Shown here in pieces: positions 9,339 to 64,000 of a stretch of 64,000 nt of DNA; within the stretch, counting starts at the first letter, position 1, and the number at the start of each line of letters is the position of its first letter. The notes beneath the pieces were generated by a model. The model saw nothing but the letters and a program-made list of their open reading frames with translations, was not told where the DNA came from and did not search any database. Both the position numbers and the translations under genes were made by a program. This DNA is from Escherichia phage vB_EcoS_MM-1: sequence record PV577657; one strand, given 5' to 3'.

Positions 9339-9348
9339 GAAACCAATT

Positions 9349-9371
9349 AGCCCCTATATGGGGCTTTTTGT
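9349..9371 (+). terminator. rho-independent terminator
   Basis: AGCCCC-tata-GGGGCT followed by TTTTT. Confidence 0.7.
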
Positions 9372-9388
9372 GTATTTGGGATATGTAA

Positions 9389-9697: not shown

Positions 9698-9713
9698 TTC
9701 TTGGCTTTTTCTT
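9683..9713 (+). terminator. rho-independent terminator overlapping the stop codon
   Basis: GCCAAGAA-tgcctag-TTCTTGGC then TTTTT. Confidence 0.65.
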
Positions 9714-9724
9714 TATAAATGTAC

Positions 9725-9753
9725 TTGCTTTCAACTCAGTTTTGTTATATAAT
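9725..9753 (+). promoter_or_regulatory. sigma70-type early promoter
   Basis: TTGCTT, 17 nt, TATAAT, then ATTTATATAAATTAATGAGAGGG. Confidence 0.6.
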
Positions 9754-9783
9754 ATTTATATAAATTAATGAGAGGGTTGCAAA

Positions 9784-10056
9784 GTGAAAAAGATAAGTAT
9801 AAGTACACTTAAACCTTTCCCGTACATCGGACAGCCTCTTATACTTATGTGGGAGGAGAAGATTAATGGGGAAAAGTATACTAAAACTAGAAGTGGGTAT
9901 AAGCTGACTTCACTTCATTACGAAAAAGAAGTATTAGTAGCTGAAATATACTCTCCGTTGTCAGATAGGCTAGTAAAAACTACATATTTGCATCGTTGCA
10001 AAAATTATACATGGCACGGATCCACTAGACAACCCTCATACTGTGAGGCAGAATAA
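9784..10056 (+). CDS. hypothetical protein (GTG start)
   Basis: ORF track. Confidence 0.45.
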   Translation: MKKISISTLKPFPYIGQPLILMWEEKINGEKYTKTRSGYKLTSLHYEKEVLVAEIYSPLSDRLVKTTYLHRCKNYTWHGSTRQPSYCEAE

Positions 10057-11028
10057 ATGACCAATGTAAAAGACTTTATTAAACGCTGTCAAGAAGCATA
10101 TTATCAAGGTATGTCTTTAATCTCTGACGAAGAATATGATCGTCTGATTAAAAGATTTCCGTTAGAAGAAGAGATCGGGCCTAAGGGCGATATTCCACAT
10201 CTGTATCGTATGTATTCTTTACAGAAAGTTTATTATAATCGTGGAGATAAACCCCCGTTTAACCCATTAGGTCAGGTAGAAACTGATAAGTTAGATGGTT
10301 GTGCAATTTCTCTGTTATATATTAATGGCGAATTTGTTCAAGCACTAACTCGTGGTAACGGTATTCTAGGGAATGATGTCACAAGCAACGTAAGATTGCT
10401 GAACATCCCTAAAAAGATTTCCCAAAAAGTACCTACTCAAATCACTGGTGAAGTTCTAATTACAAAAGAAGTAGAAAATAAACGTAACTTTGCCTCTGGT
10501 GCTATTAACCTCAAAGATAGTGATGATTTTGTACAACGTATCGGAGAAGGTGGTTTAATCTTCGTTGCATATGGTATCCAGTGTTCTGCTGAATCTGTAG
10601 GTATTACAGAAGCATATTTAAAAGATATGCTTTGGCTGGAGAATGAGAACTTCTTAACAGTTGTTAATGTGCGTTCTTTCTTTAAATGGATTCCGACGGA
10701 CGGTAAAGTTGTTCGTATTAATGATAACAACAAATTCTTCCGTGAAGGCTGGACTAATAAATTCCCTCGTGGAGCATTCGCTATTAAAGAGGATGAAGAA
10801 GGCGAGATTACAACTCTTACTAAAGTTGAATGGCAGGTAGGAGCTTCTGGTAAAGTAACTCCAGTTGGTTATTTCGAACCGGTAATTATTGATGATGCTA
10901 CAATTGTTAAAGCGACTCTTAATAACGTTGATTATATTAACTCTCTTGATCTAGAGATCGGTTGCCAGATTCGAGTGATTCGTGCTGGTGGTGTAATCCC
11001 GTGCATAGTAGAGCGAGTATATGATTAA
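10057..11028 (+). CDS. NAD-dependent DNA ligase, adenylation and OB-fold part (subunit A of a split ligase)
   Basis: KxDG adenylation motif (KLDGCA), TRGNGILGNDVT, OB-fold end IRAGGVIPCIVERV. Confidence 0.85.
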   Translation: MTNVKDFIKRCQEAYYQGMSLISDEEYDRLIKRFPLEEEIGPKGDIPHLYRMYSLQKVYYNRGDKPPFNPLGQVETDKLDGCAISLLYINGEFVQALTRGNGILGNDVTSNVRLLNIPKKISQKVPTQITGEVLITKEVENKRNFASGAINLKDSDDFVQRIGEGGLIFVAYGIQCSAESVGITEAYLKDMLWLENENFLTVVNVRSFFKWIPTDGKVVRINDNNKFFREGWTNKFPRGAFAIKEDEEGEITTLTKVEWQVGASGKVTPVGYFEPVIIDDATIVKATLNNVDYINSLDLEIGCQIRVIRAGGVIPCIVERVYD

Positions 11029-16191: not shown

Positions 16192-18759
16192 TTGAAAATC
16201 GCAGTAGTTGATAAAGCTCTAAATAACACTCGTTACGATAAACATTTCCAGCTATATGGCGAGGAAGTTGATGTATTTCATATGTGTAACGAGAAGTTAT
16301 CTGGTCGTTTGCTTAAAAAGCACATTACTATTGGAACACCAGAAAACCCATTTGATCCGAATGATTACGATTTTGTTATACTAGTAGGTGCTGAACCTTT
16401 CCTGTATTTCGCAGGTAAGAAAGGCATTGGTGACTATACTGGTAAACGTGTAGAGTATAATGGATATGCTAACTGGATTGCGAGTATCAGCCCAGCCCAG
16501 TTACACTTTAAACCTGAAATGAAACCAGTTTTCGATGCAACAGTAGAAAATATCCACGATATTATCAATGGTCGTGAGAAGGTTGCAAAAGCTGGTGATT
16601 ACCGTCCTATTACTGACCCTGACGAGGCGGAAGAATATATCAAGATGGTGTATAATATGGTTATCGGACCTGTCGCATTCGACTCCGAAACCTCAGCACT
16701 ATACTGTCGAGATGGTTATCTGCTTGGTGTTTCTATGTCTCACCAAGAGTATCAGGGTGTATATATCGATTCTGATTGTCTCACCGAGGTTGCAGTATAT
16801 TATCTCCAGAAAATTCTGGATAGTGAAAACCACACTATTGTTTTTCACAACCTGAAGTTTGATATGCACTTTTATAAGTACCATCTGGGACTTACTTTTG
16901 ATAAAGCGCATAAAGAACGCAGGCTCCATGATACTATGTTGCAGCATTATGTTCTAGATGAACGTCGTGGTACTCATGGCTTGAAATCTCTAGCAATGAA
17001 GTATACCGATATGGGTGACTATGACTTCGAACTAGATAAGTTCAAAGAGGATTACTGCAAAGCACATAAAATCAAGAAAGAAGATTTCACCTATGATTTA
17101 ATTCCGTTTGATATTATGTGGCCTTACGCTGCGAAAGATACCGATGCTACCATACGTTTGCACAACTTCTTCTTACCAAAAATTGAGAAGAATGAAAAAC
17201 TTTGTAGTCTGTATTATGATGTCCTAATGCCTGGTTGTGTATTTCTCCAGCGTGTTGAGGATCGTGGTGTACCTATTTCTATTGATCGTTTAAAAGAAGC
17301 TCAGTACCAGTTAACCCATAATCTGAATAAAGCTCGTGAAAAACTGTATACTTATCCAGAAGTCGTTCAGCTAGAGAAAGATCAGAACGAAGCGTTTAAC
17401 CCAAACTCTGTTAAACAACTCCGTGTTCTTCTGTTTGATTATGTTGGCTTAACTCCAACAGGTAAATTGACGGATACTGGAGCAGATTCTACAGATGCAG
17501 AAGCTCTGAACGAATTGTCTACGCAGCATCCAATTGCTAAGACTCTACTAGAGATTCGTAAGCTAACTAAGCTGATCTCTACTTATGTTGAGAAGATTCT
17601 TCTGAGTATTGATGCAGATGGTTGCATTCGTACTGGTTTCCACGAACATATGACTACTTCTGGTCGTCTGAGTTCTTCCGGTAAACTGAACTTGCAACAG
17701 TTACCTCGTGATGAATCTATTATCAAGGGTTGTGTAGTAGCTCCTCCTGGGTATCGTGTAATCGCATGGGACTTAACAACTGCGGAAGTTTATTATGCTG
17801 CTGTTCTATCTGGTGATAGAAATATGCAACAAGTATTTATCAACATGAGAAATGAACCAGATAAATACCCCGACTTCCACTCTAACATCGCACACATGGT
17901 ATTTAAGCTCCAATGCGAGCCTCGTGATGTTAAAAAGTTATTCCCAGCTCTGCGTCAAGCAGCTAAAGCAATCACCTTTGGTATTCTGTATGGTTCTGGC
18001 CCAGCTAAAGTAGCTCATTCTGTTAACGAAGCTCTTCTGGAACAGGCTGCTAAGACAGGCGAACCGTTTGTAGAGTGTACGGTTGCAGATGCTAAAGAGT
18101 ATATAGAAACTTACTTCGGTCAGTTCCCGCAGCTTAAGCGTTGGATTGATAAGTGCCATGATCAGATCAAGAATCATGGATTTATCTATAGTCACTTTGG
18201 TCGTAAACGTCGTCTGCATAATATCCACTCCGAAGACCGTGGTGTTCAAGGTGAAGAAATCCGTTCTGGATTTAACGCAATCATTCAGTCTGCTTCTTCT
18301 GATAGTCTCCTTTTAGGTGCTGTAGATGCAGATAATGAGATCATTTCTCTTGGCCTAGAACAAGAGATGAAGATTGTTATGCTGGTTCACGACTCCGTAG
18401 TTGCTATTGTTCGTGAGGATTTGATCGACCAATACAATGAAATCCTAATTCGTAATATTCAGAAAGACCGCGGTATTAGTATTCCTGGCTGTCCGATTGG
18501 TATTGATTCAGATTCTGAAGCTGGAGGTTCTCGCGACTACTCTTGTGGTAAGATGAAGAAACAGCACCCATCAATCGCTTGTATTGATGATGATGAATAT
18601 ACTCGTTATGTCAAGGGTGTATTACTTGATGCAGAATTCGAGTATAAGAAACTAGCTGCAATGGATAAAGAGCATCCAGATCATAGCAAATACAAGGATG
18701 ATAAGTTTATTGCTGTATGTAAAGATTTGGATAACGTGAGAAGGATTCTCGGTGCTTGA
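16192..18759 (+). CDS. family-A DNA polymerase with 3'-5' exonuclease domain (T5 D7-D9 type)
   Basis: 855 aa (T5 polymerase size); TTG start after AAGAGGAG; polymerase motifs RRLHD, QLPR, KAITFGILYG, LVHDSV. Confidence 0.9.
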   Translation: MKIAVVDKALNNTRYDKHFQLYGEEVDVFHMCNEKLSGRLLKKHITIGTPENPFDPNDYDFVILVGAEPFLYFAGKKGIGDYTGKRVEYNGYANWIASISPAQLHFKPEMKPVFDATVENIHDIINGREKVAKAGDYRPITDPDEAEEYIKMVYNMVIGPVAFDSETSALYCRDGYLLGVSMSHQEYQGVYIDSDCLTEVAVYYLQKILDSENHTIVFHNLKFDMHFYKYHLGLTFDKAHKERRLHDTMLQHYVLDERRGTHGLKSLAMKYTDMGDYDFELDKFKEDYCKAHKIKKEDFTYDLIPFDIMWPYAAKDTDATIRLHNFFLPKIEKNEKLCSLYYDVLMPGCVFLQRVEDRGVPISIDRLKEAQYQLTHNLNKAREKLYTYPEVVQLEKDQNEAFNPNSVKQLRVLLFDYVGLTPTGKLTDTGADSTDAEALNELSTQHPIAKTLLEIRKLTKLISTYVEKILLSIDADGCIRTGFHEHMTTSGRLSSSGKLNLQQLPRDESIIKGCVVAPPGYRVIAWDLTTAEVYYAAVLSGDRNMQQVFINMRNEPDKYPDFHSNIAHMVFKLQCEPRDVKKLFPALRQAAKAITFGILYGSGPAKVAHSVNEALLEQAAKTGEPFVECTVADAKEYIETYFGQFPQLKRWIDKCHDQIKNHGFIYSHFGRKRRLHNIHSEDRGVQGEEIRSGFNAIIQSASSDSLLLGAVDADNEIISLGLEQEMKIVMLVHDSVVAIVREDLIDQYNEILIRNIQKDRGISIPGCPIGIDSDSEAGGSRDYSCGKMKKQHPSIACIDDDEYTRYVKGVLLDAEFEYKKLAAMDKEHPDHSKYKDDKFIAVCKDLDNVRRILGA

Positions 18760-46387: not shown

Positions 46388-46870
46388 TTAGCCTCCAACA
46401 CCGGGATTAACCGTTACTGTGCATGCAGTAGAAGGTTTACTAACTTTCTTGCTATCTGTAACCGTTACTTTATAGACTCCCGAATCATCAGTAGCTGCTG
46501 CAGGCTTAGTATAGGTAGCTCCTGAAGCATCTGGAATAGGAGAACCATCTTTAGTCCATGCATAAGTATATGGACCAGTACCGCCGGTTGCAGTAACTGA
46601 AAGGGTTAATGCTGCTCCCTCTTCAACGGACATGCTAGCAGTTAAATCTTTAGAAAGAGTTAATGGTGGAGCAGGAGGAACTGCTTTACCATATGCCTCT
46701 ACAAATTTCTTCCATACTTTACGGTTAGTATGCGCAGATGAAAGTCCTAGTTCTCTACGCAGAAAAGCGTAACTAGGAACATATTTATGCGCAGCAACCG
46801 TAGCAAAGAAGATATGAGATTCTGGCAGTTTTTCACCAAAAATGGTCTTTAGACCATTATAATCAATCAT
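46388..46870 (-). CDS. capsid decoration protein with Ig-like domain (pb10-like)
   Basis: C-terminal Ig-like segment TYAWTKDGSPIPDASGATYT. Confidence 0.6.
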   Translation of the reverse strand: MIDYNGLKTIFGEKLPESHIFFATVAAHKYVPSYAFLRRELGLSSAHTNRKVWKKFVEAYGKAVPPAPPLTLSKDLTASMSVEEGAALTLSVTATGGTGPYTYAWTKDGSPIPDASGATYTKPAAATDDSGVYKVTVTDSKKVSKPSTACTVTVNPGVGG

Positions 46871-48084
46871 TCTTTATCTCCCTCGGTGGAACCTTGAGGT
46901 CTACCACCTTCTTGACCAGACACACCTGTTGCAGAACCAGCAACGTTAGCAGGAATACGAATCTTATCCATCTGCTCATCATCTAAAGGTTCAAGGTTCA
47001 GCTCTAAACGAGCTTCGTTACCAGTCATAATACCATTATTAACCAATGAGGTTAAATGTTTAGCCTCAGCTTCTTTATCTGGTGTTAATGCAGCTACTTC
47101 CTTAGTATTAGGAGTAATCTTATAACCAAAAAAGAAAGTAAGAGAACTAGTCAGTTTGTTCAGCATAGGAATGATAGTCATGTAATAGAACAGTTCGATA
47201 TTTGGTCGAATGTTCGCGTTATTACCACCATCAAGTAACACTTGCGGAACACCAAAGGCTAGACAGATAGATTTATTAAATCCTTCAATGTCTTCCTTAA
47301 AGTCTAGATCTTTAAAAGAGGATATTTGGGAGTACGGTTTAGCTTTCATACCACCATCTAGAATCAGGACAGAGGACTGACCAGTACTAGGATTATAATC
47401 TAGTTGTAATTCTTCTTGTTTACGCTCACGCAATTTCTTGTTCAGGATTTCATCCGTCTCAAGAATAAGTCCAATCACGGTTCCGTTATCGAGGAATTTC
47501 TCTTTAAAGTTAAGCATCTTAGAACGCTTCTCAAGAGAATCAATAACAGTAGCAACACGAGATTGTCCAGAAATTTGAGAATTTGTGCCACACACGTAAC
47601 TGTTATCCTTTATAAAGATAATCTCATCTACGCGATAGTCTATCTGGTTATTAAATATAAATTTTTTGATAAACTTATTGGCATCTGCCTCTACTTGCAT
47701 TAATGCAGCAGGGACATGGTAAAGTGCTGTGCCATCCCAATAGATGTATGCACAACCTTCAAAAAGTAGGTCAGTGACTACAAGTCTACGGAATGTGCTT
47801 ATATCCATGAATGGATTAGGTCGTACATTTAAGAGAGTGTCTAGAGTCTTTGCCTTGATGCCATTGGCATACGTGACAATATTATATTTATCTCCGACAG
47901 TATAAGAACACTCCGCCGCACTATCTATAACCATATTAGCAGTTCTATTGAGAATCTCAATTTTACTGTAGGCTTGTCCAGTGGTAAAAGGCTTACGGTT
48001 AGTGCGATGACTAACTGGTTCCATGTCTCTTATAATACGTTGACCCGGATTTAGCTTTTCAGTAATCCAGCTTTTAAAACCCAT
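46867..48084 (-). CDS. portal protein (pb7-like)
   Basis: 405 aa, directly downstream of terminase/HNH. Confidence 0.8.
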   Translation of the reverse strand: MGFKSWITEKLNPGQRIIRDMEPVSHRTNRKPFTTGQAYSKIEILNRTANMVIDSAAECSYTVGDKYNIVTYANGIKAKTLDTLLNVRPNPFMDISTFRRLVVTDLLFEGCAYIYWDGTALYHVPAALMQVEADANKFIKKFIFNNQIDYRVDEIIFIKDNSYVCGTNSQISGQSRVATVIDSLEKRSKMLNFKEKFLDNGTVIGLILETDEILNKKLRERKQEELQLDYNPSTGQSSVLILDGGMKAKPYSQISSFKDLDFKEDIEGFNKSICLAFGVPQVLLDGGNNANIRPNIELFYYMTIIPMLNKLTSSLTFFFGYKITPNTKEVAALTPDKEAEAKHLTSLVNNGIMTGNEARLELNLEPLDDEQMDKIRIPANVAGSATGVSGQEGGRPQGSTEGDKE

Positions 48085-53716: not shown

Positions 53717-54493
53717 TTACGCAACTTTTAATTTCTCGATATATTGTTGCGGGCTGCAACTATATTCTGCGCGTTCTTCCTCGGTCATACCTTCCCAACA
53801 TAATTTCAAACGATCAGCTAGGAATTGATAATCATTATCATCATCGAGGGATTCATCAATAAAGGTTTCACCTATCAATGCCACGCCGATTGATAGAATA
53901 TCGTTAACGGCTTGCGCGTCCAGCGTTTTAAATCCGTATGATGCCGCCGCTGATAGTACACCCTTATGATCATCAATCATTGTAAAATCAGCGTTCGGAT
54001 ATAACTGTTTAAATAATTCAAAATAATAAGATTTATAAACTGCGTCTTTGCTGTGGTATATCTCGCTAACTTTATCAGCCTCAAAATATTTATGCAGTGT
54101 ATCGCGAGAAAACACGCGGATATTACTATCACCACGACCGCGCAAGCCTTGTTTGCGCAAATAATAATAGTCCGACTTGCTCATTAGTCGAGCGGTACAA
54201 ATAATGTTTAAAGTATTTGCGTCATTCATGCACTGGCGCATATATGTAACAAGGGGCAATAAAGTATCTTGCATTATTAAATCATGTTTGCAGGCTTCAT
54301 TTTTATACTTATTTAAATCTAAATTGCCCTCGCTATCAAAGCAAGGCGCTACACGATGGAAAGAATTAATGATAGTGCCGTCCAGATCCCAAATCATGAC
54401 GCGGGAAATATGCGGGAAATTACGGGTAATATTCATTTTAACTTGATTCATTTTGTTACGTTCTCCATTAAAGGGATTTAGTTTATCCAGCAT
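53717..54493 (-). CDS. dmp: HAD-family 5'-deoxyribonucleotidase-like protein (Dmp-like)
   Basis: HAD motif I MIWDLDGTIINS; first gene of the pre-early-like block. Confidence 0.65.
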   Translation of the reverse strand: MLDKLNPFNGERNKMNQVKMNITRNFPHISRVMIWDLDGTIINSFHRVAPCFDSEGNLDLNKYKNEACKHDLIMQDTLLPLVTYMRQCMNDANTLNIICTARLMSKSDYYYLRKQGLRGRGDSNIRVFSRDTLHKYFEADKVSEIYHSKDAVYKSYYFELFKQLYPNADFTMIDDHKGVLSAAASYGFKTLDAQAVNDILSIGVALIGETFIDESLDDDNDYQFLADRLKLCWEGMTEEERAEYSCSPQQYIEKLKVA

Positions 54494-55274: not shown

Positions 55275-56939
55275 TTACGCGAAAAATTTACCGTTTTTAA
55301 AGTCAATCAAAGTGCGCTGACCGTTTGCATAGGTAATTAAATGCGTTTGCGTCCAGCTTGACGCGCCAACGTTGTAACCCATATCCAGACTACCAGCTAC
55401 GCCAGCGGTATAAACGCCACCGTAAATGCTAGCGGTATGGGTGTGTCCCGTGTTTAGCTTGCCCAATTTCTTAAACTGTTTAGGATTGCCACGACTGCCG
55501 TTAATGCCGTTGTGACCGTGTACGCCGCACTCAATGCCTGCAATCTTGAAAGATTGATCAGTGGTTAGGAAAATGGCGTTAAACTCACAACCTGCAACCT
55601 TGCGCAGCGCATAATCTAGCACGTTAAAAGTATCATCATGATCACTGATCGCCGCGTAAATTGCAGCATTCAGGCGGTGATATAGTTCGGCGTTGGCTGG
55701 ATCGTCTTTGATGTTAGCATTACGATCATCTAACCAGCGGGATAGCGCCAAATCGTGATTAGATTCAACAATGATTGTTTGAGAGAAATCACGTTCCATT
55801 GATTCCAGCACGCGCCCCGTATCGATAAGATCATCCAGAACTTTATCACGTCCAGCGGCATACTGTTTTGCTAGGAATACACCGGATGCACGGTTATGAT
55901 GATTGCGCGATGTAAAATCATGCACGTCATGGATAAACTGATATTTTGGTTTAAGAATATCAAGCAAGCTATTTTCGCCAGCCCATGACGCAACGGCACA
56001 ATCATCATCTAATTTTTCCGCATGAATATCGCCATACTGCAAGCCTAAAACATGCCCCGATGTTTCATAGCATCCGGCAGGAGTAGCGCAAACATTCAGA
56101 TCATAAAACACCCCGCTTTCGTCCATTGTTTCAAGCTGGCGAACAAAAAATTCCCCGTCCTCGTCGAACTCAACAATCAGCGCGCCGAAGTTATGCAGAG
56201 CTTCCGCTTTTTGTCCTGCTTTCTGCTGAATATAGTTTTTAAGCGTTGCCGTTCCGGTTGAATACATACGGCGCACTACTTCACCTTTTAAAGCTGGCAC
56301 GCTTTCAGCGGTGATTTTAGCGTGACCAATTGCCAGCCCCTCAATATTGAGCGCCGTTGCAGTTTCTGCAAATCCTGAAAGCGGGTAATCTGCGGTTGGC
56401 AAAACATTAATTTCAGCCATGAAAGCAAAACGGCGGTTATTTAAAAACACGTTTTTGCTGCAAATATATTTATCAAATGCGGGATCGTATTTGATACCGT
56501 CTGCACCTTCTTCATTCTGGAAGCCATTTTTATTATAAATATACTTAGAAACAAGCAAATCAGCACCGATATATTCAGCGAATTTTTCCAGACTTGCTAA
56601 AAAGTTTTTATGCGGGAAAGTATTATTTTGAATCGACGTAATAATAAAGCGTTTACCCTGTTTTACTTCCCATTGCTCAACCGTACTAGAAACAATTCCC
56701 GCCGCTTCTGGGCGCTCATCGTTTTTAATGGCTTTTGCTACTTTTGCCGCTTTCGGTTTAGCTGGTTTATTTGCTTCCAGCCAGTCGCAGATAGCGGTTG
56801 AATGCTTCGTTGTATCGTAGACCGCTTTTGATATATCGTCGCAGACTTCCAGTTTAGTAGCGCGCAGACGTTTACCATAGAAATTAAAGTCAGCGGCCAT
56901 TTTCAGGATAACGGTTTGTTTTTCTGCGGAAATAATCAT
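55275..56939 (-). CDS. A1: A1-like pre-early protein, metallophosphatase fold
   Basis: 554 aa (T5 A1 is 556); phosphoesterase motifs GDIHAE and GHTHTASI. Confidence 0.7.
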   Translation of the reverse strand: MIISAEKQTVILKMAADFNFYGKRLRATKLEVCDDISKAVYDTTKHSTAICDWLEANKPAKPKAAKVAKAIKNDERPEAAGIVSSTVEQWEVKQGKRFIITSIQNNTFPHKNFLASLEKFAEYIGADLLVSKYIYNKNGFQNEEGADGIKYDPAFDKYICSKNVFLNNRRFAFMAEINVLPTADYPLSGFAETATALNIEGLAIGHAKITAESVPALKGEVVRRMYSTGTATLKNYIQQKAGQKAEALHNFGALIVEFDEDGEFFVRQLETMDESGVFYDLNVCATPAGCYETSGHVLGLQYGDIHAEKLDDDCAVASWAGENSLLDILKPKYQFIHDVHDFTSRNHHNRASGVFLAKQYAAGRDKVLDDLIDTGRVLESMERDFSQTIIVESNHDLALSRWLDDRNANIKDDPANAELYHRLNAAIYAAISDHDDTFNVLDYALRKVAGCEFNAIFLTTDQSFKIAGIECGVHGHNGINGSRGNPKQFKKLGKLNTGHTHTASIYGGVYTAGVAGSLDMGYNVGASSWTQTHLITYANGQRTLIDFKNGKFFA

Positions 56940-57321: not shown

Positions 57322-57729
57322 TTATTCGCCTGCGGCTTGTTTTACTTCCTCGGCAACGCCTAACAATTGCGCTACTGCGTCCAGCGTTTCAAGTTTTGCA
57401 CTTTCAAGGCTTGCCAGATCATCGGCATCTTTGATAATGCCGGAATCGATAGCGTGTTTTGCAATAACGCGTACATAATGAGCTTTGCGGATTGAACTAC
57501 CGCCGCCAACTTTGCGGGGCTTACCGCTTTTTTGATATGCTTTTGCGCTGGTCAATTTTGACCGAACGGATACGGGAGAAGCCGCGCCTACTGCTTTTGC
57601 AATCTCTTTCAGGCCGTCGCTATTTGCGAAATCTAAACCGTTTTCATTAATTAACTGTTGATACATGGAAACAGCTTTCTGAGTGTTTTCTTCATTCCAT
57701 GCGAATTTTGCGGTTTTAGCGTTAGTCAT
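57322..57729 (-). CDS. A2: A2-like pre-early DNA-binding protein
   Basis: 135 aa, basic centre (KSGKPRKVGGGSSIRKAH), adjacent to A1-like gene. Confidence 0.55.
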   Translation of the reverse strand: MTNAKTAKFAWNEENTQKAVSMYQQLINENGLDFANSDGLKEIAKAVGAASPVSVRSKLTSAKAYQKSGKPRKVGGGSSIRKAHYVRVIAKHAIDSGIIKDADDLASLESAKLETLDAVAQLLGVAEEVKQAAGE

Positions 57730-58511: not shown

Positions 58512-58956
58512 ATCGTCGATTCCTTATAATGAATAAGTTTACCGCCGATAGGCTTTAAGATGTACCCAATTTTTAAAGAGCGTGGCGGTAAACTTCCCGC
58601 CGTGTAGTTCGTCATTGCCGCCCTACGAGATAAATAATAGGGGATTCCCGAAAATGGCGCAACCTTATTTTTGTAAAGAAATGTAAAGGTAAAACTCACC
58701 GGACACCGTGCGGCGACGGCCTAAAATTAAAAGAAACGGGCGCGCGAATACCACAAAATAAAGCAAATAGGCAAGTAATTTTTTCATTTATATTTGCTTT
58801 GCCCTACTTGACAAAATCTAAAAAGCTCGTGGTAACGATAAACGGCTTATCCCCTTATGATGGGATGGCTAAAAACTTTATTGCGTTCTGGAGCGTTTTA
58901 GGCGCATTCTAGCCTTGTTGATAACTTATCCCCAAAAGCAAAAATGAAATTTTCCT

Positions 58957-58993
58957 AGTTATCCACTTGACTTTTATTTTCCAGTGGATAACT
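58957..58993. promoter_or_regulatory. inverted pair of DnaA-box-like sites
   Basis: AGTTATCCACT ... AGTGGATAACT flanking TGACTTTTATTTTCC. Confidence 0.5.
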
Positions 58994-59255
58994 ACTTATT
59001 TTATGAAATAAATTAATTGACTTTTATTTGTTAGTATGCATCGGAAAGATAGCAGACTAATAATTGCTAGAATGATAATCATGCTGGTGGATTGTAACGA
59101 CCTGAATTATTAGCAGACTATTAATCACGGAAAAATCTCATTAGCCAACTAACTATTTCATGATATATAATATACATATAAATTAATGAGAAATAATAAC
59201 TATAAGAAATCATCTAGCTAAGTGAGAACCACTATCATTTAAGTTATACACAAAG

Positions 59256-59264
59256 TTATCCACA
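59256..59264 (+). promoter_or_regulatory. consensus DnaA box
   Basis: TTATCCACA exact 9-mer. Confidence 0.5.
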
Positions 59265-59333
59265 GCACTTTTTGACTTGACACGATAGGCGGCGATATAA
59301 GGACTTTTACACAGACTTATCTACAGGTTATTC

Positions 59334-59353
59334 CACTGTATAAATATACAGGG
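59334..59353. promoter_or_regulatory. LexA (SOS) box-like palindrome
   Basis: cACTGTATAAATATACAGgg = CTGT-N8-ACAG with AT-rich core. Confidence 0.55.
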
Positions 59354-59618
59354 TAAAAAGGTAGTGTTAACAACTGCAATCAATTTTAAGCGGCTTAAAT
59401 CGCATTCTAACGAGCTAAACGCTGCGGGGTAATATTAAAGTAAAGCCTTAATGCGTCGCCCTGGTGGCTTCGCCGTGGTTTGCTCTTTATTGCACCGCTG
59501 CGCGGTTAGCATAAAAATAGGCGCTAGGCAAGGAAAATAAAAAGGTAAAATAATATTTGCCTATGCTAGAAATTTACCTTTATCATTCACTCACCGATTA
59601 ACGAGGGAGGCCGAACAA

Positions 59619-60398
59619 ATGAGGCTTTATAAACCTGATAATGCCACCGTTTTAAAAGGTGCATTGCGCAACCTGCTGGATGGTAGCAAGTCAACCAGCA
59701 TTAAACATTTTATTAACAAGATTGAAACTATTCATCAAAACTTTTTTGATGATTATGACGCTTATGATATGGATAGTTTTCTACCCTTATATAGACAAGG
59801 GGCAACGCTAGTTTTATATAATCGGGATTGCCATATCTTTACAGGCAGGGGAGCGGGGCCGGATACCGATTTTATTGTTGCGCAGGGTAATAATATTGTT
59901 GCGTATCATAGCAATTCAGGCCGTCAATCATTTAATATAAATAGTTTTGAGCTTATTGGACTTGATCTGATAAATGGACTTTCTAGCATTGAGGGATTTT
60001 TAGATGTTATCTGGAAGTATTTACCCGCTGGATGGCATAAGCCGGATAACGACGGATCTCAATATACCGGTATAATGGCTTTTGATGGCGACGGTAATTT
60101 TTTGTTACCACGGGAGCTATACCCATATATTTATGATGGGGATATAGAAAGCGCTGGTTTTTCTTTCTGGAAAGATGAAGATCAGATTATTGACAGCGTA
60201 GAAAACCATGCTGTAAATTCTAACACTCAAAGCGTTAACACTCAAACTACTGAAAACAAAGGAAAAAACACTATGACCAAGATTGCTAACATCGTTGCCG
60301 CTAATAAATCCGCCGTTGTAAATGCTGCAAAACTGGAAGCGGGTAAAATTGCACTGACTCAAATCACGAAAGTAGCGGCTAAAAAGCACCGTTCATGA
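59619..60398 (+). CDS. hypothetical protein
   Basis: Strong RBS GAGGGAGG; 259 aa. Confidence 0.6.
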   Translation: MRLYKPDNATVLKGALRNLLDGSKSTSIKHFINKIETIHQNFFDDYDAYDMDSFLPLYRQGATLVLYNRDCHIFTGRGAGPDTDFIVAQGNNIVAYHSNSGRQSFNINSFELIGLDLINGLSSIEGFLDVIWKYLPAGWHKPDNDGSQYTGIMAFDGDGNFLLPRELYPYIYDGDIESAGFSFWKDEDQIIDSVENHAVNSNTQSVNTQTTENKGKNTMTKIANIVAANKSAVVNAAKLEAGKIALTQITKVAAKKHRS

Positions 60399-60628
60399 TT
60401 AAAGGCTATATTGATACGCCGATTGGTCGAGTAGTGATTGCTAACCTGCTAAGTGTAGCGGTTGACCAGTACGCACCGACTAACCAGAAAGCGAAAGCGG
60501 TAGCAGGGGCGGCTATGGAAGCGGCAATGCTGGAAATGGTGCAAAGTTTTAACATCGCTGAAATGATTGATGAAATGGTGAAAGGTATTGATATTTCTAC
60601 TTTTACCACTAGCACCGAAATCGAGTAA
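60395..60628 (+). CDS. hypothetical protein
   Basis: ATGA overlap with previous gene; terminator hairpin AGTGGGGA-ttatt-TCCCCACT after stop. Confidence 0.5.
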   Translation: MIKGYIDTPIGRVVIANLLSVAVDQYAPTNQKAKAVAGAAMEAAMLEMVQSFNIAEMIDEMVKGIDISTFTTSTEIE

Positions 60629-60693
60629 TAATATTTAGTGGGGATTATTTCCCCACTTTACTACTCCCTTGTTAATTAATAGGAGGCTAACTA

Positions 60694-61188
60694 ATGGCTG
60701 AGGAAAAATACGGCTTCTCGCTAGGAGAAGTGAGCACGGCTAAACATGATATGATCATTTTAGTCGATTGTCATACTGGCTATTGCGGAGAAGGGAACAC
60801 CGAAGAATACTTTGTTCCTGCTGGTACGGATCTGGACGCTTTCGCTCATGAAATGGCTATTGATAATGCTTCTCGTTTTGGTAGCGATGGCTATGAAGAC
60901 GAAGAAACTGGCGAATGGTATGAAAATGAAAACGTATATGCAAGCCTTTATCATTATCAGCTAAGTAAATCCGGCACATATGTAAACGGCGGCGATCCTA
61001 TTAATTCCGTCATGAAATTAATTATTAAATATGGTGGCGTCGAGATAATTGATAACAAAGCGGTAATATACGCAAACCGATTAAAACAGCTTGTTTATAT
61101 TCCTGATAGTACCCGATGGGATGAATACGCTGTTTTGCATGACGAATTGAAACGATGTTTCAATATTGAATCCCTGCAAGTAGTCTAA
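60694..61188 (+). CDS. hypothetical acidic protein
   Basis: Strong RBS AGGAGG; 164 aa. Confidence 0.6.
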   Translation: MAEEKYGFSLGEVSTAKHDMIILVDCHTGYCGEGNTEEYFVPAGTDLDAFAHEMAIDNASRFGSDGYEDEETGEWYENENVYASLYHYQLSKSGTYVNGGDPINSVMKLIIKYGGVEIIDNKAVIYANRLKQLVYIPDSTRWDEYAVLHDELKRCFNIESLQVV

Positions 61189-61293
61189 TGTAAAGTTTTG
61201 TAAAGGTCGCCTTTTATGGTGGCCTTTTTTGTTATAATGCTTTTACACCAAAACGGTGGATTGAAAATTTTCCCAAAAATTTGGAGGCTTAAA

Positions 61294-61524
61294 ATGGTTG
61301 CTTATTCTTCTGCTAGTCATCTGTTTACCGCGCAAGGCTGGGTATCTAATCGTGCTGTCATCTATGAAATGGTGCAGGAGTTCGGCATTGCTAAAACTTA
61401 TAATACCATTCAGGAACTATATAACGCCGATAAAATCGATCAGCAAACGGCTGGCTTTTTACTGGATACCCTGAAAGCTGAACATTGCACTAAAAAACAA
61501 GCCGCTAAAATTGTTTTAATGTAA
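61294..61524 (+). CDS. hypothetical protein
   Basis: ATG 61294 with GGAGG RBS (track start 61216); terminator CGGGGCG-ttacttt-CGCCCCG downstream. Confidence 0.5.
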   Translation: MVAYSSASHLFTAQGWVSNRAVIYEMVQEFGIAKTYNTIQELYNADKIDQQTAGFLLDTLKAEHCTKKQAAKIVLM

Positions 61525-61573
61525 TTAATAACGGGGCGTTACTTTCGCCCCGATAACTAGGAGGCTATCACAA

Positions 61574-61723
61574 ATGGTTATTTTTCGATCTATTTTAGCG
61601 GGTATCTTGGGCGCTATTTTATCGTTATTTGCGATAGCTTTCGGCGTTCACGCTGTTATTATTGGCGCTGGCATTGCTGCGTTTTCTTATCTGCTGGGCT
61701 GCATGACTAGTAAAGGAGAATAA
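61574..61723 (+). CDS. small two-helix hydrophobic protein (49 aa)
   Basis: RBS AGGAGG; Gly/Ala-rich TM segments; below ORF-track length cutoff. Confidence 0.45.
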   Translation: MVIFRSILAGILGAILSLFAIAFGVHAVIIGAGIAAFSYLLGCMTSKGE

Positions 61724-61725
61724 AA

Positions 61726-61938
61726 ATGATCCGCAACGTTTCCCTTGCACGTTCGAAAGGCTTTAAGCTGGTGGATGTTAACACGTTCGAGTGGGAAGAT
61801 TGTAAAATCGAATATGTAGCACGTAACAAAAATGCCTTTCGTGTTACCGAGAAAAAATTTGATAAGCGCGGCAACGTGATAGCTGAAACAGTTAAACATT
61901 TTGCCACCTTTTACGCTGCTTTCCGTGGGGTATTATGA
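61726..61938 (+). CDS. hypothetical protein
   Basis: RBS AAAGGAGAA. Confidence 0.5.
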   Translation: MIRNVSLARSKGFKLVDVNTFEWEDCKIEYVARNKNAFRVTEKKFDKRGNVIAETVKHFATFYAAFRGVL

Positions 61939-62057
61939 TTCAGCAAATTAAAACGGCTTTTCGTTTTTGGGGCGTCCTGCCTTCAATTGGTTTTATTCTG
62001 ATAATTATTAGTCAGCTAATGATCATCGGCGGAACTATTTGGGAGCTATGCAAATGA
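61935..62057 (+). CDS. small hydrophobic protein (40 aa)
   Basis: ATGA overlaps at both ends. Confidence 0.35.
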   Translation: MIQQIKTAFRFWGVLPSIGFILIIISQLMIIGGTIWELCK

Positions 62058-62398
62058 TAATTTATGAAGGCAATCGCTTTGTTGCTAATTGCCGTCCGGC
62101 ATTATTAGCAAACTATTTAAACCAGCTTTCCCCAGCTTATAAGGGCGTTATTAATATTTATGAGGGAAAGGCGCATTATAAAATTAATGCGGTCGTTGCC
62201 CGTGAACTAGCATTTCAATTTTTGACCTTTGCATCTTGTGACGTTCAGGTTATGGGTGAGGCATTAATCGCGGAAAATGAAGAGGATTTTATTAATATTT
62301 TCCGTAAGGTATGCACTGAGCGCTTGATAATGAAAGGCGCGTATATTCAATCAACTGCGGAAAGTATTGAAACAGCATTTCGAAAGGTGGCGCAATGA
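62054..62398 (+). CDS. hypothetical protein
   Basis: ATG 62054 (track start TTG 62039); 114 aa. Confidence 0.5.
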   Translation: MIIYEGNRFVANCRPALLANYLNQLSPAYKGVINIYEGKAHYKINAVVARELAFQFLTFASCDVQVMGEALIAENEEDFINIFRKVCTERLIMKGAYIQSTAESIETAFRKVAQ

Positions 62399-62498
62399 GA
62401 TTATATATTTTCGTTGGTAATGTTAAGGCAGCTAATGATTCCGCTGGTGGCGACAACGTTCGCCACCATTGGCAAAAATATATTTACTAGGAGTTATT

Positions 62499-62606
62499 AT
62501 GTCTGGTTTAATGTTTACCTTATTAGTAGTTTATAGCATAATTACGGCAGGAATAGTAACTTATGTTACTAGTAAAATTTGGCCGGGAATATATGGTAAT
62601 TTTTAA
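62499..62606 (+). CDS. small hydrophobic protein (35 aa)
   Basis: RBS AGGAG; single TM helix. Confidence 0.35.
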   Translation: MSGLMFTLLVVYSIITAGIVTYVTSKIWPGIYGNF

Positions 62607-62621
62607 TAACGGAGCGTTATT

Positions 62622-62825
62622 ATGAGCAATAAAATTATTGTAACCAAAATCAGTACAATGGTTGATGTTTTTTACGTGCCAGATACGCCGGAGAATCGGC
62701 AAGCGGTCGAGCGGGGCGAATATGATAAAGTGATTTATGATCACGATGGTTATTATCAGTATTTGGTGGATTCCTACGGGGAGGAGGAGAAGATCACGCA
62801 TCGACTACCGGAGGAGGGTTTATGA
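62622..62825 (+). CDS. hypothetical acidic protein
   Basis: RBS ACGGAG; 67 aa. Confidence 0.5.
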   Translation: MSNKIIVTKISTMVDVFYVPDTPENRQAVERGEYDKVIYDHDGYYQYLVDSYGEEEKITHRLPEEGL

Positions 62826-62980
62826 AACGATGGTTTAATCACTGGTACAAGCGGTTTTTAGTACGCCGTCGCAAGTCTAGGCATCAAGATGAGTGGCGGG
62901 AGTGGGCAAAGCGTAACGGTTGCCCGCTACTATAATAATCACGGGGCGCAACTATCGGGAAGTGCCCCCAATTCTCAAAT

Positions 62981-63001
62981 GAGAATCATTCTCATTTGAC
63001 C
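62981..63001. repeat. perfect 21-bp palindrome
   Basis: AAATGAGAAT-C-ATTCTCATTT; partial copies recur at the ends of the 67-bp repeats. Confidence 0.8.
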
Positions 63002-63192
63002 GCGCCCGCGATGGTTAGCCTGCTAATGATTAGGGTGTTACGTGTCGCCTTGTGTGATCGTTAGCGAGCTAACTAATTTTCAAGCCTCCTCCAATTTTGC
63101 CCTTGTTTTAGTATCTCCACCAAAATTAAACGCGTTAGAATGCGATCTAGGACGTTTTAACGCTATATTAGAATTATTCACTGCGTAGGAAT

Positions 63193-63212
63193 ACTGTATA
63201 TTTATACAGTAG
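63193..63212. promoter_or_regulatory. LexA (SOS) box-like palindrome
   Basis: TACTGTATATTTATACAGTA. Confidence 0.6.
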
Positions 63213-63219
63213 GATAAGC

Positions 63220-63302
63220 TGTGGATAAGTCTGTTAATAACACCCCAAAATGGCTAGGATTCTGTCAAGTCAAATCGTGCTGTTAATAAGTCTGTGGATA
63301 AC
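63220..63302. promoter_or_regulatory. two consensus DnaA boxes within an inverted motif pair
   Basis: TGTGGATAA at 63220-63228 and 63294-63302, each linked to GTCTGTTAATAA. Confidence 0.5.
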
Positions 63303-63317
63303 TTAAATAATAGTGTT

Positions 63318-63488
63318 TCTCACTTCCGTTCTTAAATACGAATCACTATCATTTGCGTTCCACTTTCTAAATGAGAATCATTCTGCTTTTTAAAGGAGAA
63401 TCGTTTCACTTCCTGAATAATTCTCACTTCCATTCTTAAATGCGAATTATTATCATTCTCATTCCGCTTTTTAAATGAGAATCATTCT
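63318..63488. repeat. two about 67-bp direct repeats, each ending in the AAATGAGAATCATTCT half-palindrome
   Basis: Units at 63318-63384 and 63422-63488 are near-identical. Confidence 0.75.
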
Positions 63489-63511
63489 CATTATCATTCG
63501 CATTCAGGCGA

Positions 63512-63529
63512 GCAGGGCAATTGCCCTGC
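63512..63529. repeat. perfect 18-bp palindrome
   Basis: GCAGGGCAA-TTGCCCTGC. Confidence 0.7.
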
Positions 63530-63535
63530 GCTTTT

Positions 63536-63758
63536 GTGCAAATCCGACATTGCTCCACGGGTGTTACGTGCGGGCGTGTATGTGCGAATCCGACAATTTT
63601 TGGTAGTGTGCAAATCCGACCCGAAAAATTTTTATAGTGTGCAAATCCGACAATGAATTTTCCTAAAAACTCCAGCAATCACGAACTGCGTTCGAATCCT
63701 GTGGGGTATGTGCAAATCCGACACGGTTTTTCTAGGATTAAGATGTGCGAATCCGACA
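63536..63758 (+). repeat. array of six direct copies of GTGC(A/G)AATCCGAC(A), irregularly spaced, each followed by a T-rich tract
   Basis: Copies at 63536, 63582, 63608, 63638, 63710 and 63745. Confidence 0.8.
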
Positions 63759-64000
63759 AGATTTTTGTGACTTCGATTGGAGGGTGTGTGATTGTGTGAG
63801 TTTGGGGAGAAGTTGAGAGAGCGAGAAAAATTTGAGGGAACTGCGGGAGGGGCGCATGTTTGGTGCGGAGCACCTGATTTGCGGGGATTTTGGGGAAGAG
63901 TTGAGAAGATTTGGGTTAATTTGAGATTAGTGCAGAAAAAGTAAAATTTTATTAGCTAAATGGAGCAAAATAGCTTGACAAGTGAAAATTCTTGTGGCTC

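What the first reader, a model, noticed from the sequence alone, without database searches (positions are those of the whole stretch)
59334..63212. Two near-consensus LexA (SOS) boxes in the noncoding pre-early/terminal region of an apparently virulent phage
cACTGTATAAATATACAGgg (59334-59353) and TACTGTATATTTATACAGTA (63193-63212) both fit the E. coli LexA box (CTGT-N8-ACAG with AT-rich core). Both lie in intergenic regulatory DNA next to DnaA boxes, not in coding sequence. SOS-responsive control is expected in temperate phages; here it could couple first-step or early expression to host DNA damage, or titrate LexA.
Basis: partly seen in the sequence, partly recalled or inferred. Interest (0 to 1): 0.55.

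Follow-up and report, generated by a model that had tools for sequence, protein, structure and literature searches.

The report
Conserved LexA boxes in T5 injection-stop repeats
Two near-perfect binding sites for the host DNA-damage repressor LexA, each 8 bases from a pair of DnaA boxes, sit in the inverted repeats that bracket part of the first DNA a T5-like phage injects; the composite is conserved from E. coli phages to Vibrio phages, seems not to have been recognised as LexA sites, and gives a testable handle on T5's unexplained two-step DNA injection.

Summary
The window is a T5-like phage (99.8% identical to ECOP18 and MM-2), and 53.6-63.9 kb is its terminal repeat, the pre-early first-step-transfer DNA. 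They are not independent: they are homologous copies in the known 131-bp inverted repeat of T5 (IRD, and IRD' with 'palindrome D'). Box 2 lies inside the annotated injection stop signal. New here: the box belongs to a fixed composite (LexA box, 7-9 nt, phased DnaA-box doublet) that recurs in Klebsiella, Pectobacterium, Proteus and Vibrio T5-like phages (A1 only 31-42% identical in Proteus and Vibrio). Substitutions are one-sided and LexA-tolerated. The boxes do not overlap any annotated T5 promoter. The inner arm lies within a stretch deleted in a viable T5 mutant. The gene cassette between the arms has inverted during evolution. Most likely these are true host-LexA sites in a host-factor module at the cassette and injection-stop boundaries; the functional output is unproven. 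No accessible paper links T5 to LexA.

The parts
59334..59353 (.). Box 1: LexA-type palindrome CACTGTATAAATATACAGGG, in the inner arm (equivalent to the end of T5 'inverted repeat D')
   Evidence: 20.5 bits; the homologous T5 site is at 6135 in AY587007
63192..63211 (.). Box 2: LexA-type palindrome TACTGTATATTTATACAGTA, in the outer arm (equivalent to T5 'palindrome D', inside the annotated injection stop signal)
   Evidence: 25.5 bits, 19/20 to consensus; T5 palindrome D at 9330-9349; iss annotated at 9140-10149 in AY543070 with the box at 9409
59220..59351 (.). Left arm of the 132-nt inverted repeat (T5 'IRC-spacer-IRD'). Weaker homology continues to 59419.
   Evidence: pairs I1 and I3; Davison's description
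63194..63325 (.). Right arm of the inverted repeat (T5 IRD'-spacer-IRC'). Weaker homology starts at 63126.
   Evidence: pairs I1 and I3
59305..59325 (+). Proximal DnaA-type doublet of the inner arm: TTTTACACA (59305-59313), 3 nt, TTATCTACA (59317-59325). It lies 8 nt from box 1.
   Evidence: box definitions
59244..59264 (+). Distal DnaA doublet of the inner arm: TTATACACA (59244-59252), 3 nt, TTATCCACA (59256-59264)
63220..63240 (-). Proximal DnaA doublet of the outer arm: TGTGGATAA (63220-63228), 3 nt, TGTTAATAA (63232-63240). It lies 8 nt from box 2.
63281..63301 (-). Distal DnaA doublet of the outer arm: TGTTAATAA (63281-63289), 3 nt, TGTGGATAA (63293-63301)
63095..63175 (.). Conserved flank on the cassette side of box 2: a TTTAGTAT motif and about four ~11-nt periodic gcgYT(C)TAGR-like repeats. 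The mirror copy next to box 1 is roughly 59370-59450.
   Evidence: shared from E. coli to Vibrio phages; pair I3
59619..62935 (+). Accessory pre-early gene cassette bracketed by the two modules (DUF7566/T5.011-like genes through small ORFs). It is inverted relative to A1 in Klebsiella Roth39, Pectobacterium My1 and L037.
62968..63498 (.). AAATGAGAATCATTCTCATTT-type palindromes and repeats (T5 DRC and palE-I) flanking box 2. They are Fur-box-like.
   Evidence: (D1, I9, I16)
63534..63766 (+). Six GTGCAAATCCGAC repeats (T5 'direct repeat D') distal to the module, near the end of the first-step-transfer DNA
   Evidence: D2

Best explanation
The two palindromes are genuine binding sites for the host SOS repressor LexA. 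They are kept by selection as one element of an ancient composite host-factor module: about four 11-nt periodic repeats, the LexA box, 7-9 nt, a phased DnaA-box doublet, roughly 45-52 nt, then a second DnaA doublet. The module occurs as an inverted pair bracketing the accessory pre-early gene cassette in the terminal repeat of T5-like phages. The outer copy, which holds box 2, is present in every sampled Demerecviridae genus and lies in the injection-stop region. The inner copy, which holds box 1, is optional. Shown here: the sequence quality of the sites, the fixed architecture, and conservation across Escherichia, Klebsiella, Pectobacterium, Proteus and Vibrio phages. Inferred: when the first 8% of the genome enters, no phage protein has yet been made, so pre-existing host LexA and DnaA occupy the module. 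The inverted geometry gives both copies the same polarity relative to the cassette. That fits a boundary function, such as a protein roadblock or clamp that limits RNA polymerase or DNA movement out of the cassette towards the still-uninjected DNA and towards the A2/A1 operon. LexA occupancy would make this boundary sensitive to the host's SOS state. My estimates are about 0.9 that LexA binds these sites in vitro and about 0.6 that LexA is the selected ligand. Given LexA, I put about 0.5 on a boundary or injection-pause role and about 0.35 on classical promoter repression.
For: The scores of 20.5 and 25.5 bits fall within or above the range of E. coli operators, and box 2 matches 19/20 of the published consensus. 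All 39 loci with A1 at least 66% identical and enough flank carry two boxes. Distant genera also carry boxes of 19-25 bits. Most of these boxes lie next to DnaA boxes: Klebsiella, Pectobacterium, Proteus (A1 42% identical), Vibrio D124, PG07 and Dax (31-34%). In 5 of these 6 loci, 0 of 1000 simulations reach the observed number of sites of at least 18 bits. Anchoring only on DnaA doublets, 15 of 38 distinct doublets have a box of at least 16 bits just upstream, against 0.15% of random windows, with the gap fixed at 8 nt (13 cases) or 7 nt (2 cases). The central 4 nt vary (AT, AA, TT, CC, GA) while CTGTAT and ATACAG are kept. The few half-site changes are one-sided and palindrome-breaking, such as CTGG, with no compensatory pairs. 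That is the pattern expected for a dimeric protein with LexA's specificity, not for a hairpin. The CTGT-N8-ACAG motif extends to most gamma-Proteobacteria and a validated form of it was used for the Vibrionaceae SOS regulon (PMC3323433), so these hosts are expected to share it. A1-bearing phages outside this group lack both LexA and DnaA boxes. The composite is essentially absent from bacterial genomes, with 6 hits in 596 Gb and no match in E. coli genomes. Box 2 lies in the annotated injection stop signal.
Against: There is no binding or expression data. Neither box overlaps an annotated or characterised T5 promoter, which is the usual operator position. A viable T5 mutant deleted from hegG to gene 017 has smaller plaques only; from the coordinates this span includes the inner arm with box 1, but the exact junctions were not available to me. 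The inner arm is degenerate or missing in some lineages, so box 1 at least is dispensable. A T5-like phage is listed with host DH5a, which is recA1 to my knowledge, so LexA cleavage is not required. Within close relatives the box is no better conserved than the rest of the repeat. All sampled hosts are expected to share one LexA motif, so the site could not be shown to track a host's motif. The PWM was built from remembered operator sequences.
Confidence: 0.58

Rival explanations
1. Classical SOS operators: LexA bound at the boxes directly represses a promoter that overlaps or adjoins each box, so that pre-early transcription rises in SOS-induced hosts.
For: LexA's established role is promoter repression. 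In Vibrio phage D124, box c sits 10 nt upstream, and box b about 60 nt upstream beyond a DnaA pair, of perfect sigma54-type promoter motifs reading towards A2/A1. The degenerate inner box of PG07 sits 9 nt upstream of an imperfect one. A 10/12 sigma70-like match (TTAACA-16-TATATT, minus strand, 59370-59343) has its -10 inside box 1. Box 1 lies in the divergent region between the leftward and rightward pre-early operons.
Against: The characterised T5 pre-early promoters (P-H22, P-D/E20 and the one upstream of gene 011) are about 200 bp or more from box 1. The universally conserved outer box lies downstream of the operon, in DNA without ORFs. No -35/-10 pair next to the box is conserved across genera. 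The 59370-59343 match is absent from T5 itself and sits in a poorly conserved stretch. Promoter-like hits are expected in a TATA-rich box.
Confidence: 0.2
2. The palindrome is the target of a phage protein, either a pre-early protein such as the DNA-binding protein A2 (with A1) or an injected virion protein. This protein would act at restart of DNA transfer, and the likeness to the LexA box would be convergent or incidental.
For: [quoted passage not shown] The module co-occurs with A1, A2 and dmp in every lineage that has it. A2 is predicted to be helical with an N-terminal HTH-like bundle. A 20-bp palindrome is a typical site for a dimeric protein.
Against: A2 has no significant structural match. 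The LexA-DNA complex 3jsp appears only at rank 14 with E=2.8. A2 has no Pfam or PDB sequence hit to LexA-type domains, and none of 10 pre-early proteins has a LexA_DNA_bind domain. A chance 19/20 match to the full 20-nt LexA consensus, flanking TA...TA included, has roughly 2^-25 probability per position. It is maintained across phages whose A2 proteins are only 31-42% identical over the aligned parts. The injection pause occurs without phage protein synthesis (established knowledge, Lanni 1968, as summarised), which favours host factors for at least the stop.
Confidence: 0.15
3. The palindromes are structural or recombinational DNA: hairpin or cruciform elements, or simply the ends of an inverted repeat that mediates cassette inversion. 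No sequence-specific ligand would be involved, and the LexA similarity would be chance.
For: The boxes lie within a long inverted repeat in a region full of palindromes. The cassette between the arms has inverted between lineages.
Against: Sequence, and not just symmetry, is conserved across very distant phages. Half-site changes break the palindrome rather than compensate. The inverted-repeat homology continues about 70 nt beyond the boxes, so they are not its ends. The spacing to the DnaA boxes is fixed at 7-9 nt. No recombinase domain was found among the 10 neighbouring ORFs scanned.
Confidence: 0.05

Closest known systems
T5 injection-stop-region inverted repeats (IRC-spacer-IRD and IRD'-spacer-IRC', 'palindrome D') with paired DnaA boxes (Heusterspreute 1987; Wang 2005; Davison 2020 preprint)
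   Same: This is the same element. The boxes align with the end of T5 inverted repeat D (6112-6152) and with palindrome D (9330-9349). The DnaA doublets, the ~52-bp spacer and the position relative to the 7.9% nick all match.
   Different: The literature I could read treats the palindrome as an unexplained repeat and discusses only DnaA. Davison 2020 has zero mentions of LexA or SOS. A 2026 PNAS paper and a 2026 preprint on T5 pre-early genes likewise have none. The LexA identity, the fixed 8-nt LexA-DnaA spacing and the extension to Proteus and Vibrio phages are added here.
Chromosomal SOS operators of Gammaproteobacteria (for example recA, sulA, umuDC)
   Same: The same 20-nt motif, with scores equal to or above genuine operators, and the same pattern of tolerated variation.
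   Different: Chromosomal operators overlap or adjoin promoters. These sites do not overlap annotated T5 promoters, and the conserved copy lies in noncoding DNA downstream of an operon. They are also coupled to DnaA boxes.
LexA exploited by mobile elements: CTX-phi rstA promoter, coliphage 186 tum, GIL01 with gp7, colicin operons, integron integrases (own knowledge; GIL01 and integron papers are listed)
   Same: A mobile element carries host LexA sites, so it can read the host's SOS state.
   Different: The known cases are temperate phages, plasmids or integrons, where LexA represses a defined promoter to time induction. Here the carrier is an obligately virulent phage and the site is part of a non-promoter DnaA-box array in first-entering DNA.
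oriC-type arrays of phased DnaA boxes
   Same: Same-orientation DnaA boxes at 11-13-nt pitch, in two clusters about five helical turns apart.
   Different: The T5 replication origins that have been mapped lie near the genome centre. No DnaA-trio or unwinding element was evident by eye, and LexA boxes are not part of oriC.

Membership tests
Gammaproteobacterial LexA operator (SOS box) | 16-bp CTGT-N8-ACAG palindrome with an AT-rich spacer, extended consensus TACTG(TA)5CAGTA | tested here: met
   Exact CTGT-N8-ACAG at 59336 and 63194; 16/20 and 19/20 matches to the published consensus.
Gammaproteobacterial LexA operator (SOS box) | Quantitative score within the range of experimentally validated operators | tested here: met
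   20.5 and 25.5 bits against 13.0-23.4 for 23 E. coli operators. The PWM comes from remembered sequences, so the absolute values are approximate.
Gammaproteobacterial LexA operator (SOS box) | Position overlapping or immediately adjoining a promoter | tested here: inconclusive
   Not met for the annotated or characterised T5 promoters, which are 200 bp or more away. Only weak, non-conserved sigma70-like matches overlap the boxes. In Vibrio phages, however, boxes adjoin sigma54-type motifs.
Gammaproteobacterial LexA operator (SOS box) | Bound by LexA in vitro or in vivo, with RecA-dependent derepression of a target | not testable with these tools
   No binding or expression data exist in the searchable literature.
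T5-type injection-stop inverted repeat (IRD / palindrome D module) | Homologous ~131-bp inverted pair in the terminal repeat with DnaA doublets separated by a ~52-bp spacer, with the outer copy left of the 7.9% nick | tested here: met
   132-nt arms at 59220-59351 and 63194-63325; positional homology with the T5 annotation; doublets mapped.
Site-specific invertible segment (Hin/Gin/Cin type) | Short crossover sites at the ends of the segment plus an adjacent serine or tyrosine recombinase gene | tested here: not met
   The cassette is inverted between lineages, but no recombinase domain appears among the 10 ORFs scanned. The arms are about 130-200 nt of general homology, which fits rare homologous recombination.
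Fur box (side observation for the neighbouring palindromes) | 19-bp GATAATGATAATCATTATC-like inverted repeat | tested here: inconclusive
   Best sites have 3-4 mismatches, at 63477 and 63442. Locally there are 6 hits against 0.06 expected, but they are copies of one repeat. They recur in My1, PG07 and L092 but not in D124 or Dax.

The most novel reading that the evidence does not exclude
The long-sought injection stop signal of T5-like phages is a landing pad for pre-existing host DNA-binding regulators: LexA plus a DnaA array, and possibly Fur on the neighbouring palindromes. These would load onto the last part of the first-step DNA as it enters, forming a nucleoprotein clamp or roadblock. 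That clamp would hold the pause, or stop RNA polymerase from reeling in the rest of the genome, until A1 and A2 act. The pause would then depend on the host's SOS, replication and iron status.
Probability: 0.15. Interest if true: 0.85.

Novelty: new variant of a known kind. Interest (0 to 1): 0.62.

Why it matters
How T5 stops DNA transfer after 8% of its genome and later restarts has been unexplained for more than 50 years. The stop signal is defined only as a thicket of repeats, palindromes and DnaA boxes. Recognising one of its most conserved palindromes as an operator-quality LexA site, locked at a fixed distance from the DnaA boxes across the Demerecviridae genera sampled here, names a second candidate host factor. 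To my knowledge lexA, like dnaA, is missing from single-gene knockout collections, which would make both invisible to standard host-factor screens. The idea can be tested with existing tools: LexA gel shifts, lexA(Def) and lexA(Ind-) hosts, and the T5 genome-editing methods of the 2026 preprint. It would also be an unusual case of an obligately virulent phage reading or using the SOS repressor.

Tried and rejected
1. A2 as a LexA-like protein. I predicted its structure (pLDDT 84.6, all-helical) and searched the PDB. There was no significant match and LexA ranked 14th with E=2.8. Pfam and PDB sequence searches were also negative. The rival ligand is weakened but not excluded.

2. Host-motif tracking. 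A1-bearing loci outside the Demerecviridae-like group have neither LexA boxes nor DnaA boxes, so no alternative LexA motif could be compared. The test was uninformative.

3. A conserved sigma70 promoter next to the box. None was found across genera.

4. The JSS1_004 lead, a phage protein reported to bind the recA and lexA promoters. It is a kinase/shutoff protein resembling T7 gp0.7 (own knowledge), with nothing linking it to T5-like phages, so it is irrelevant.

5. Origin in the host chromosome. There is no match in 5,426 E. coli genomes, and the composite appears only 6 times in 596 Gb of bacterial genomes.

6. Greater conservation of the box than of its flanks among close relatives. This was not seen, because the whole repeat is conserved. 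Only the distant genera were informative.

7. LexA cleavage as an obligatory timer for restart. I rejected this because a T5-like phage is listed with host DH5a, which is recA1 to my knowledge.

8. LexA titration. I rejected this on copy-number grounds (own knowledge).

9. Other PWM hits in the window at 17342 and 47964. Both lie inside long ORFs and are treated as incidental.

10. I could not obtain Heusterspreute 1987, Wang 2005 or Davison 2015. An earlier remark on the LexA resemblance cannot be excluded.

Full report
WHAT THE WINDOW IS. Window 58800-64000 is 99.8% identical to Escherichia phages ECOP18 and vB_EcoS_MM-2 (genus Tequintavirus, T5-like). In MM-2 it maps to positions 5207-10299 of the annotated left terminal repeat. 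Window positions from about 53.6 to 63.9 kb are therefore the terminal repeat, the pre-early first-step-transfer DNA. The genes dmp (53717-54493), A1 (55275-56939) and A2 (57322-57729) lie on the minus strand. A divergent plus-strand cassette of small accessory genes runs from 59619 to 62935. Beyond it lies noncoding repeat-rich DNA.

THE OBSERVATION. Both sequences exist. Box 1, CACTGTATAAATATACAGGG, is at 59334-59353. CTGT-N8-ACAG occurs three times in the window against 0.70 expected. I built a 20-nt PWM from 23 E. coli operators recalled from memory. On it the boxes score 20.5 and 25.5 bits, the training operators 13.0-23.4 and the perfect consensus 26.8. Simulated windows reach a mean maximum of 13.2 bits. 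Box 2 differs at one position from the published consensus TACTGTATATATATACAGTA (PMC8072944). The other PWM hits, at 17342 (17.4 bits) and 47964 (15.2 bits), lie inside long ORFs.

THE BOXES ARE COPIES WITHIN A KNOWN REPEAT. The boxes are the cassette-proximal parts of a 132-nt inverted repeat with arms at 59220-59351 and 63194-63325, 77% complementary. Weaker homology continues another ~70 nt towards the cassette (pairs I1 and I3). In the T5 record AY587007 the same sites are the end of 'inverted repeat D' (6112-6152; box at 6135) and 'palindrome D' (9330-9349). In AY543070 they lie at 6211 and 9409, the latter inside the feature annotated 'injection stop signal (iss)', 9140-10149. Davison's comparative study describes these repeats (IRC-spacer-IRD and IRD'-spacer-IRC'), their paired DnaA boxes and the constant 52-bp spacer. 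It argues that they belong to the stop signal. It never mentions LexA or SOS.

LITERATURE. A 2026 PNAS paper and a 2026 preprint on T5 pre-early genes also have no mention of LexA or SOS. Five full-text searches combining T5, Tequintavirus or injection-stop terms with LexA or SOS-box terms found no paper making the link. I could not read Heusterspreute 1987, Wang 2005 or Davison 2015.

CONSERVATION AMONG CLOSE RELATIVES. To avoid selecting on the box itself, I collected loci through the A1 protein. All 39 loci with A1 at least 66% identical and enough upstream DNA have two boxes of at least 16.5 bits. L020 has none because it is truncated. The 26 loci with A1 at 36-47% identity have none. Among the close relatives the whole repeat is conserved, so the box does not stand out from its flanks.

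CONSERVATION IN DISTANT GENERA. Named, divergent Demerecviridae were decisive. Klebsiella Roth39 has boxes of 25.5 and 25.6 bits, and Pectobacterium My1 of 24.8 and 23.8. Proteus M4H10_20 (A1 42% identical) has 19.2 and 22.1. Vibrio D124 (34%) has 21.8, 19.4 and 22.1. Vibrio PG07 (32%) has 22.4, and Vibrio Dax (31%) has 22.4 and 18.1. In five of these six loci no simulation out of 1000 reaches the observed number of sites of at least 18 bits. For PG07, which has one site, 14 of 1000 do.

MODULE ARCHITECTURE. The architecture is constant. The LexA-type 20-mer comes first. Then come 7-9 nt (8 in most), a DnaA box, 2-3 nt, a second DnaA-type box, about 45-52 nt, and further DnaA boxes. Vibrio D124 keeps the elements but with looser spacing. 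On the other side of the box lie about four ~11-nt periodic gcgYT(C)TAGR-like repeats and a TTTAGTAT motif, also shared from E. coli phages to Vibrio phages.

NON-CIRCULAR TEST. I anchored solely on same-orientation DnaA doublets. Of 38 distinct doublets, 15 have a box of at least 16 bits within 34 nt upstream, against 0.15% of random windows. The gap is 8 nt in 13 cases and 7 nt in 2. The remaining doublets are the distal ones of each arm.

DISTRIBUTION OF THE COMPOSITE. A pattern search for the composite in IMG/VR returned 56 stretches. They comprise the isolate T5-like genomes plus metagenomic contigs, at least four of which encode A1, A2 and dmp homologues. The same pattern occurs only six times in 596 Gb of bacterial genomes, about the chance level. 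The module has no match in E. coli genomes. A1-bearing phages outside this group lack DnaA boxes as well as LexA boxes, so the two elements travel together.

WHO BINDS THE PALINDROME. Across lineages CTGTAT and ATACAG are retained while the central four bases vary (AT, AA, TT, CC, GA). The rare half-site changes are one-sided, such as CTGG or a single T-to-C change. They break the palindrome rather than compensate, and they are of kinds seen in genuine operators. This fits a dimeric protein with LexA's recognition profile and argues against a purely structural hairpin.

[quoted passage not shown] All the hosts here are Gammaproteobacteria, so they are expected to share it. That also means I could not show the site tracking a different host motif.

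The obvious phage candidate is A2. It is predicted with confidence to be all-helical (pLDDT 84.6) and has no significant structural neighbour; the LexA-DNA complex appears only at rank 14 with E=2.8. It has no Pfam or PDB sequence match, and none of ten pre-early proteins has a LexA-type domain. A2 or another phage protein is not excluded, but nothing supports it. The pause occurs without phage protein synthesis (Lanni 1968, as summarised in Davison's text), which favours pre-existing host factors for the stop.

WHAT THE SITES DO. This part is inferred. [quoted passage not shown] The annotated promoter intervals (4338-4664, 4799-4873, 5938-6012 and 6411-6489 in AY543070) are about 200 bp or more from box 1. 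Box 2 lies downstream of the cassette. No -35/-10 pair next to the box is conserved. So the boxes are not classical operators of the known promoters in E. coli phages.

Two Vibrio lineages differ. In D124, box c is followed 10 nt later by a perfect sigma54-type motif (TGGCAC-N5-TTGC) reading towards A2/A1. Box b is followed by a DnaA pair and then another such motif. The degenerate inner box of PG07 is followed 9 nt later by an imperfect one. A transcriptional role therefore remains possible.

DISPENSABILITY OF THE INNER ARM. A viable T5 mutant deleted from hegG to gene 017 makes smaller plaques. From the coordinates, this span includes the inner arm with box 1, although the exact junctions were not available to me. 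In nature the inner arm is degenerate or missing in some lineages. The outer, stop-signal-proximal module is present in every sampled Demerecviridae genus.

CASSETTE INVERSION. The homologous cassette genes (DUF7566 gene, c3, c8) run divergently from A1 in the window and T5. In the Proteus phage the one detected homologue (the DUF7566 gene) is likewise divergent. In Klebsiella Roth39, Pectobacterium My1 and L037 they run co-directionally with A1, with their order flipped relative to the inner and outer modules. The segment between the arms has therefore inverted during evolution. [quoted passage not shown]

WORKING MODEL. An inverted pair presents the same polarity to anything leaving the cassette in either orientation. 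That leads me to favour a boundary role: host LexA plus DnaA forming a roadblock or clamp at the cassette ends. The outer one would stand between transcribed first-step DNA and the DNA still outside the cell. LexA would make the boundary sensitive to SOS. A T5-like phage is recorded with host DH5a, which is recA1 to my knowledge. LexA cleavage therefore cannot be an obligatory step, and any effect is modulatory or LexA must be displaced in another way. Titration of LexA by 2-4 sites per genome is not credible (own knowledge of LexA abundance).

COMPARISON AND NOVELTY. As a sequence element this is already known: it is T5 palindrome D and inverted repeat D. As a LexA site it meets the sequence criteria of the family but not the usual promoter-overlap criterion, and binding is untested. 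LexA sites on mobile elements are well known for temperate phages, colicin plasmids and integrons. An operator-quality LexA box fixed next to a DnaA array in non-promoter, first-entering DNA of an obligately virulent phage family is a new variant of that theme. I rate interest at about 0.6. The identification is simple, but it names a testable host factor for a 50-year-old problem.

SIDE OBSERVATION ON FUR-LIKE SITES. The AAATGAGAATCATTCTCATTT-type palindromes next to box 2 resemble Fur boxes. The best sites have 3-4 mismatches out of 19, and there are 6 local hits against 0.06 expected, though they are copies of one repeat. They recur in some other genera but not all. This hints that the stop region may be an array of host-regulator sites.

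Noticed in passing
L071 (Vibrio phage D124) 7021, 7053, 8179, 10343, 10650, 10969; L072 (PG07) 2169, 2720, 2996, 5145, 5177, 5468; L073 (Dax) 527, 4418: The pre-early noncoding DNA of Vibrio T5-like phages is dense in sigma54-type promoter motifs (TGGCA[CT]-N5-TTGC). Several read towards A2/A1 and sit next to the LexA/DnaA modules. There are none in the 64-kb E. coli window or in the Klebsiella and Proteus loci. A virulent phage relying on sigma54 for its first genes would be unusual.
   Followed up: partly
window 62975-62997, 63369-63389, 63442-63460, 63471-63495; also 53821-53845 inside dmp: The AAATGAGAATCATTCTCATTT-type palindromes next to box 2 resemble Fur boxes (3-5 mismatches to GATAATGATAATCATTATC; 6 local hits against 0.06 expected, but they are repeat copies). 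Similar sites occur in the My1, PG07 and L092 pre-early regions but not in D124 or Dax. A 2-mismatch site lies within the dmp coding sequence and is conserved in the Klebsiella phage. T5's receptor FhuA is Fur-regulated (own knowledge).
   Followed up: partly
window 59619-62935 compared with L069 5822-8964, L039 3722-5232, L037 3287-5196: The accessory pre-early cassette between the two inverted-repeat arms is inverted relative to A1 in Klebsiella Roth39, Pectobacterium My1 and L037 compared with T5, this window and the Proteus phage. This fits recombination across the arms.
   Followed up: yes
window 63095-63175, with the mirror copy around 59370-59450: A TTTAGTAT motif and about four ~11-nt periodic gcgYT(C)TAGR-like repeats on the cassette side of each LexA box are shared from E. 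coli to Vibrio T5-like phages. No ligand or function is known.
   Followed up: partly
window 59619-60398 and 60395-60628: The DUF7566 family (T5 gene 011, a single 336-aa ORF in AY543070 and reported as toxic and unclonable) is split here into two ORFs overlapping by ATGA. They match profile positions 5-256 and 260-334. AY587007 also annotates two ORFs. This could be a genuine split or frameshift, or a sequencing difference.
   Followed up: no
L039 (My1) 6012 and 6216; L037 948 and 6250; L072 (PG07) 5438; L073 (Dax) 561: A half-degenerate box variant, [GC][CG]ATGTATAAATATACAGT (ATGT instead of CTGT in one half), recurs in several genera as extra copies near the inner module. These may be weaker LexA sites or relics of duplicated arms.
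   Followed up: no
window 47964-47983 (in ORF 46867-48084, minus strand) and 17342-17361 (in ORF 16192-18759, plus strand): Two further LexA-like 20-mers (15.2 and 17.4 bits) lie inside long ORFs. The first is conserved as its reverse complement in many Tequintavirus loci, probably because it is coding sequence.
   Followed up: partly
window 58956-58994: A 15-nt inverted pair (TAGTTATCCACTTGA / TCCAGTGGATAACTA) places two DnaA boxes in opposite orientation, 9 nt apart, in the upstream repeat region (T5 Repeat Region 1). It is separate from the LexA-associated module.
   Followed up: no
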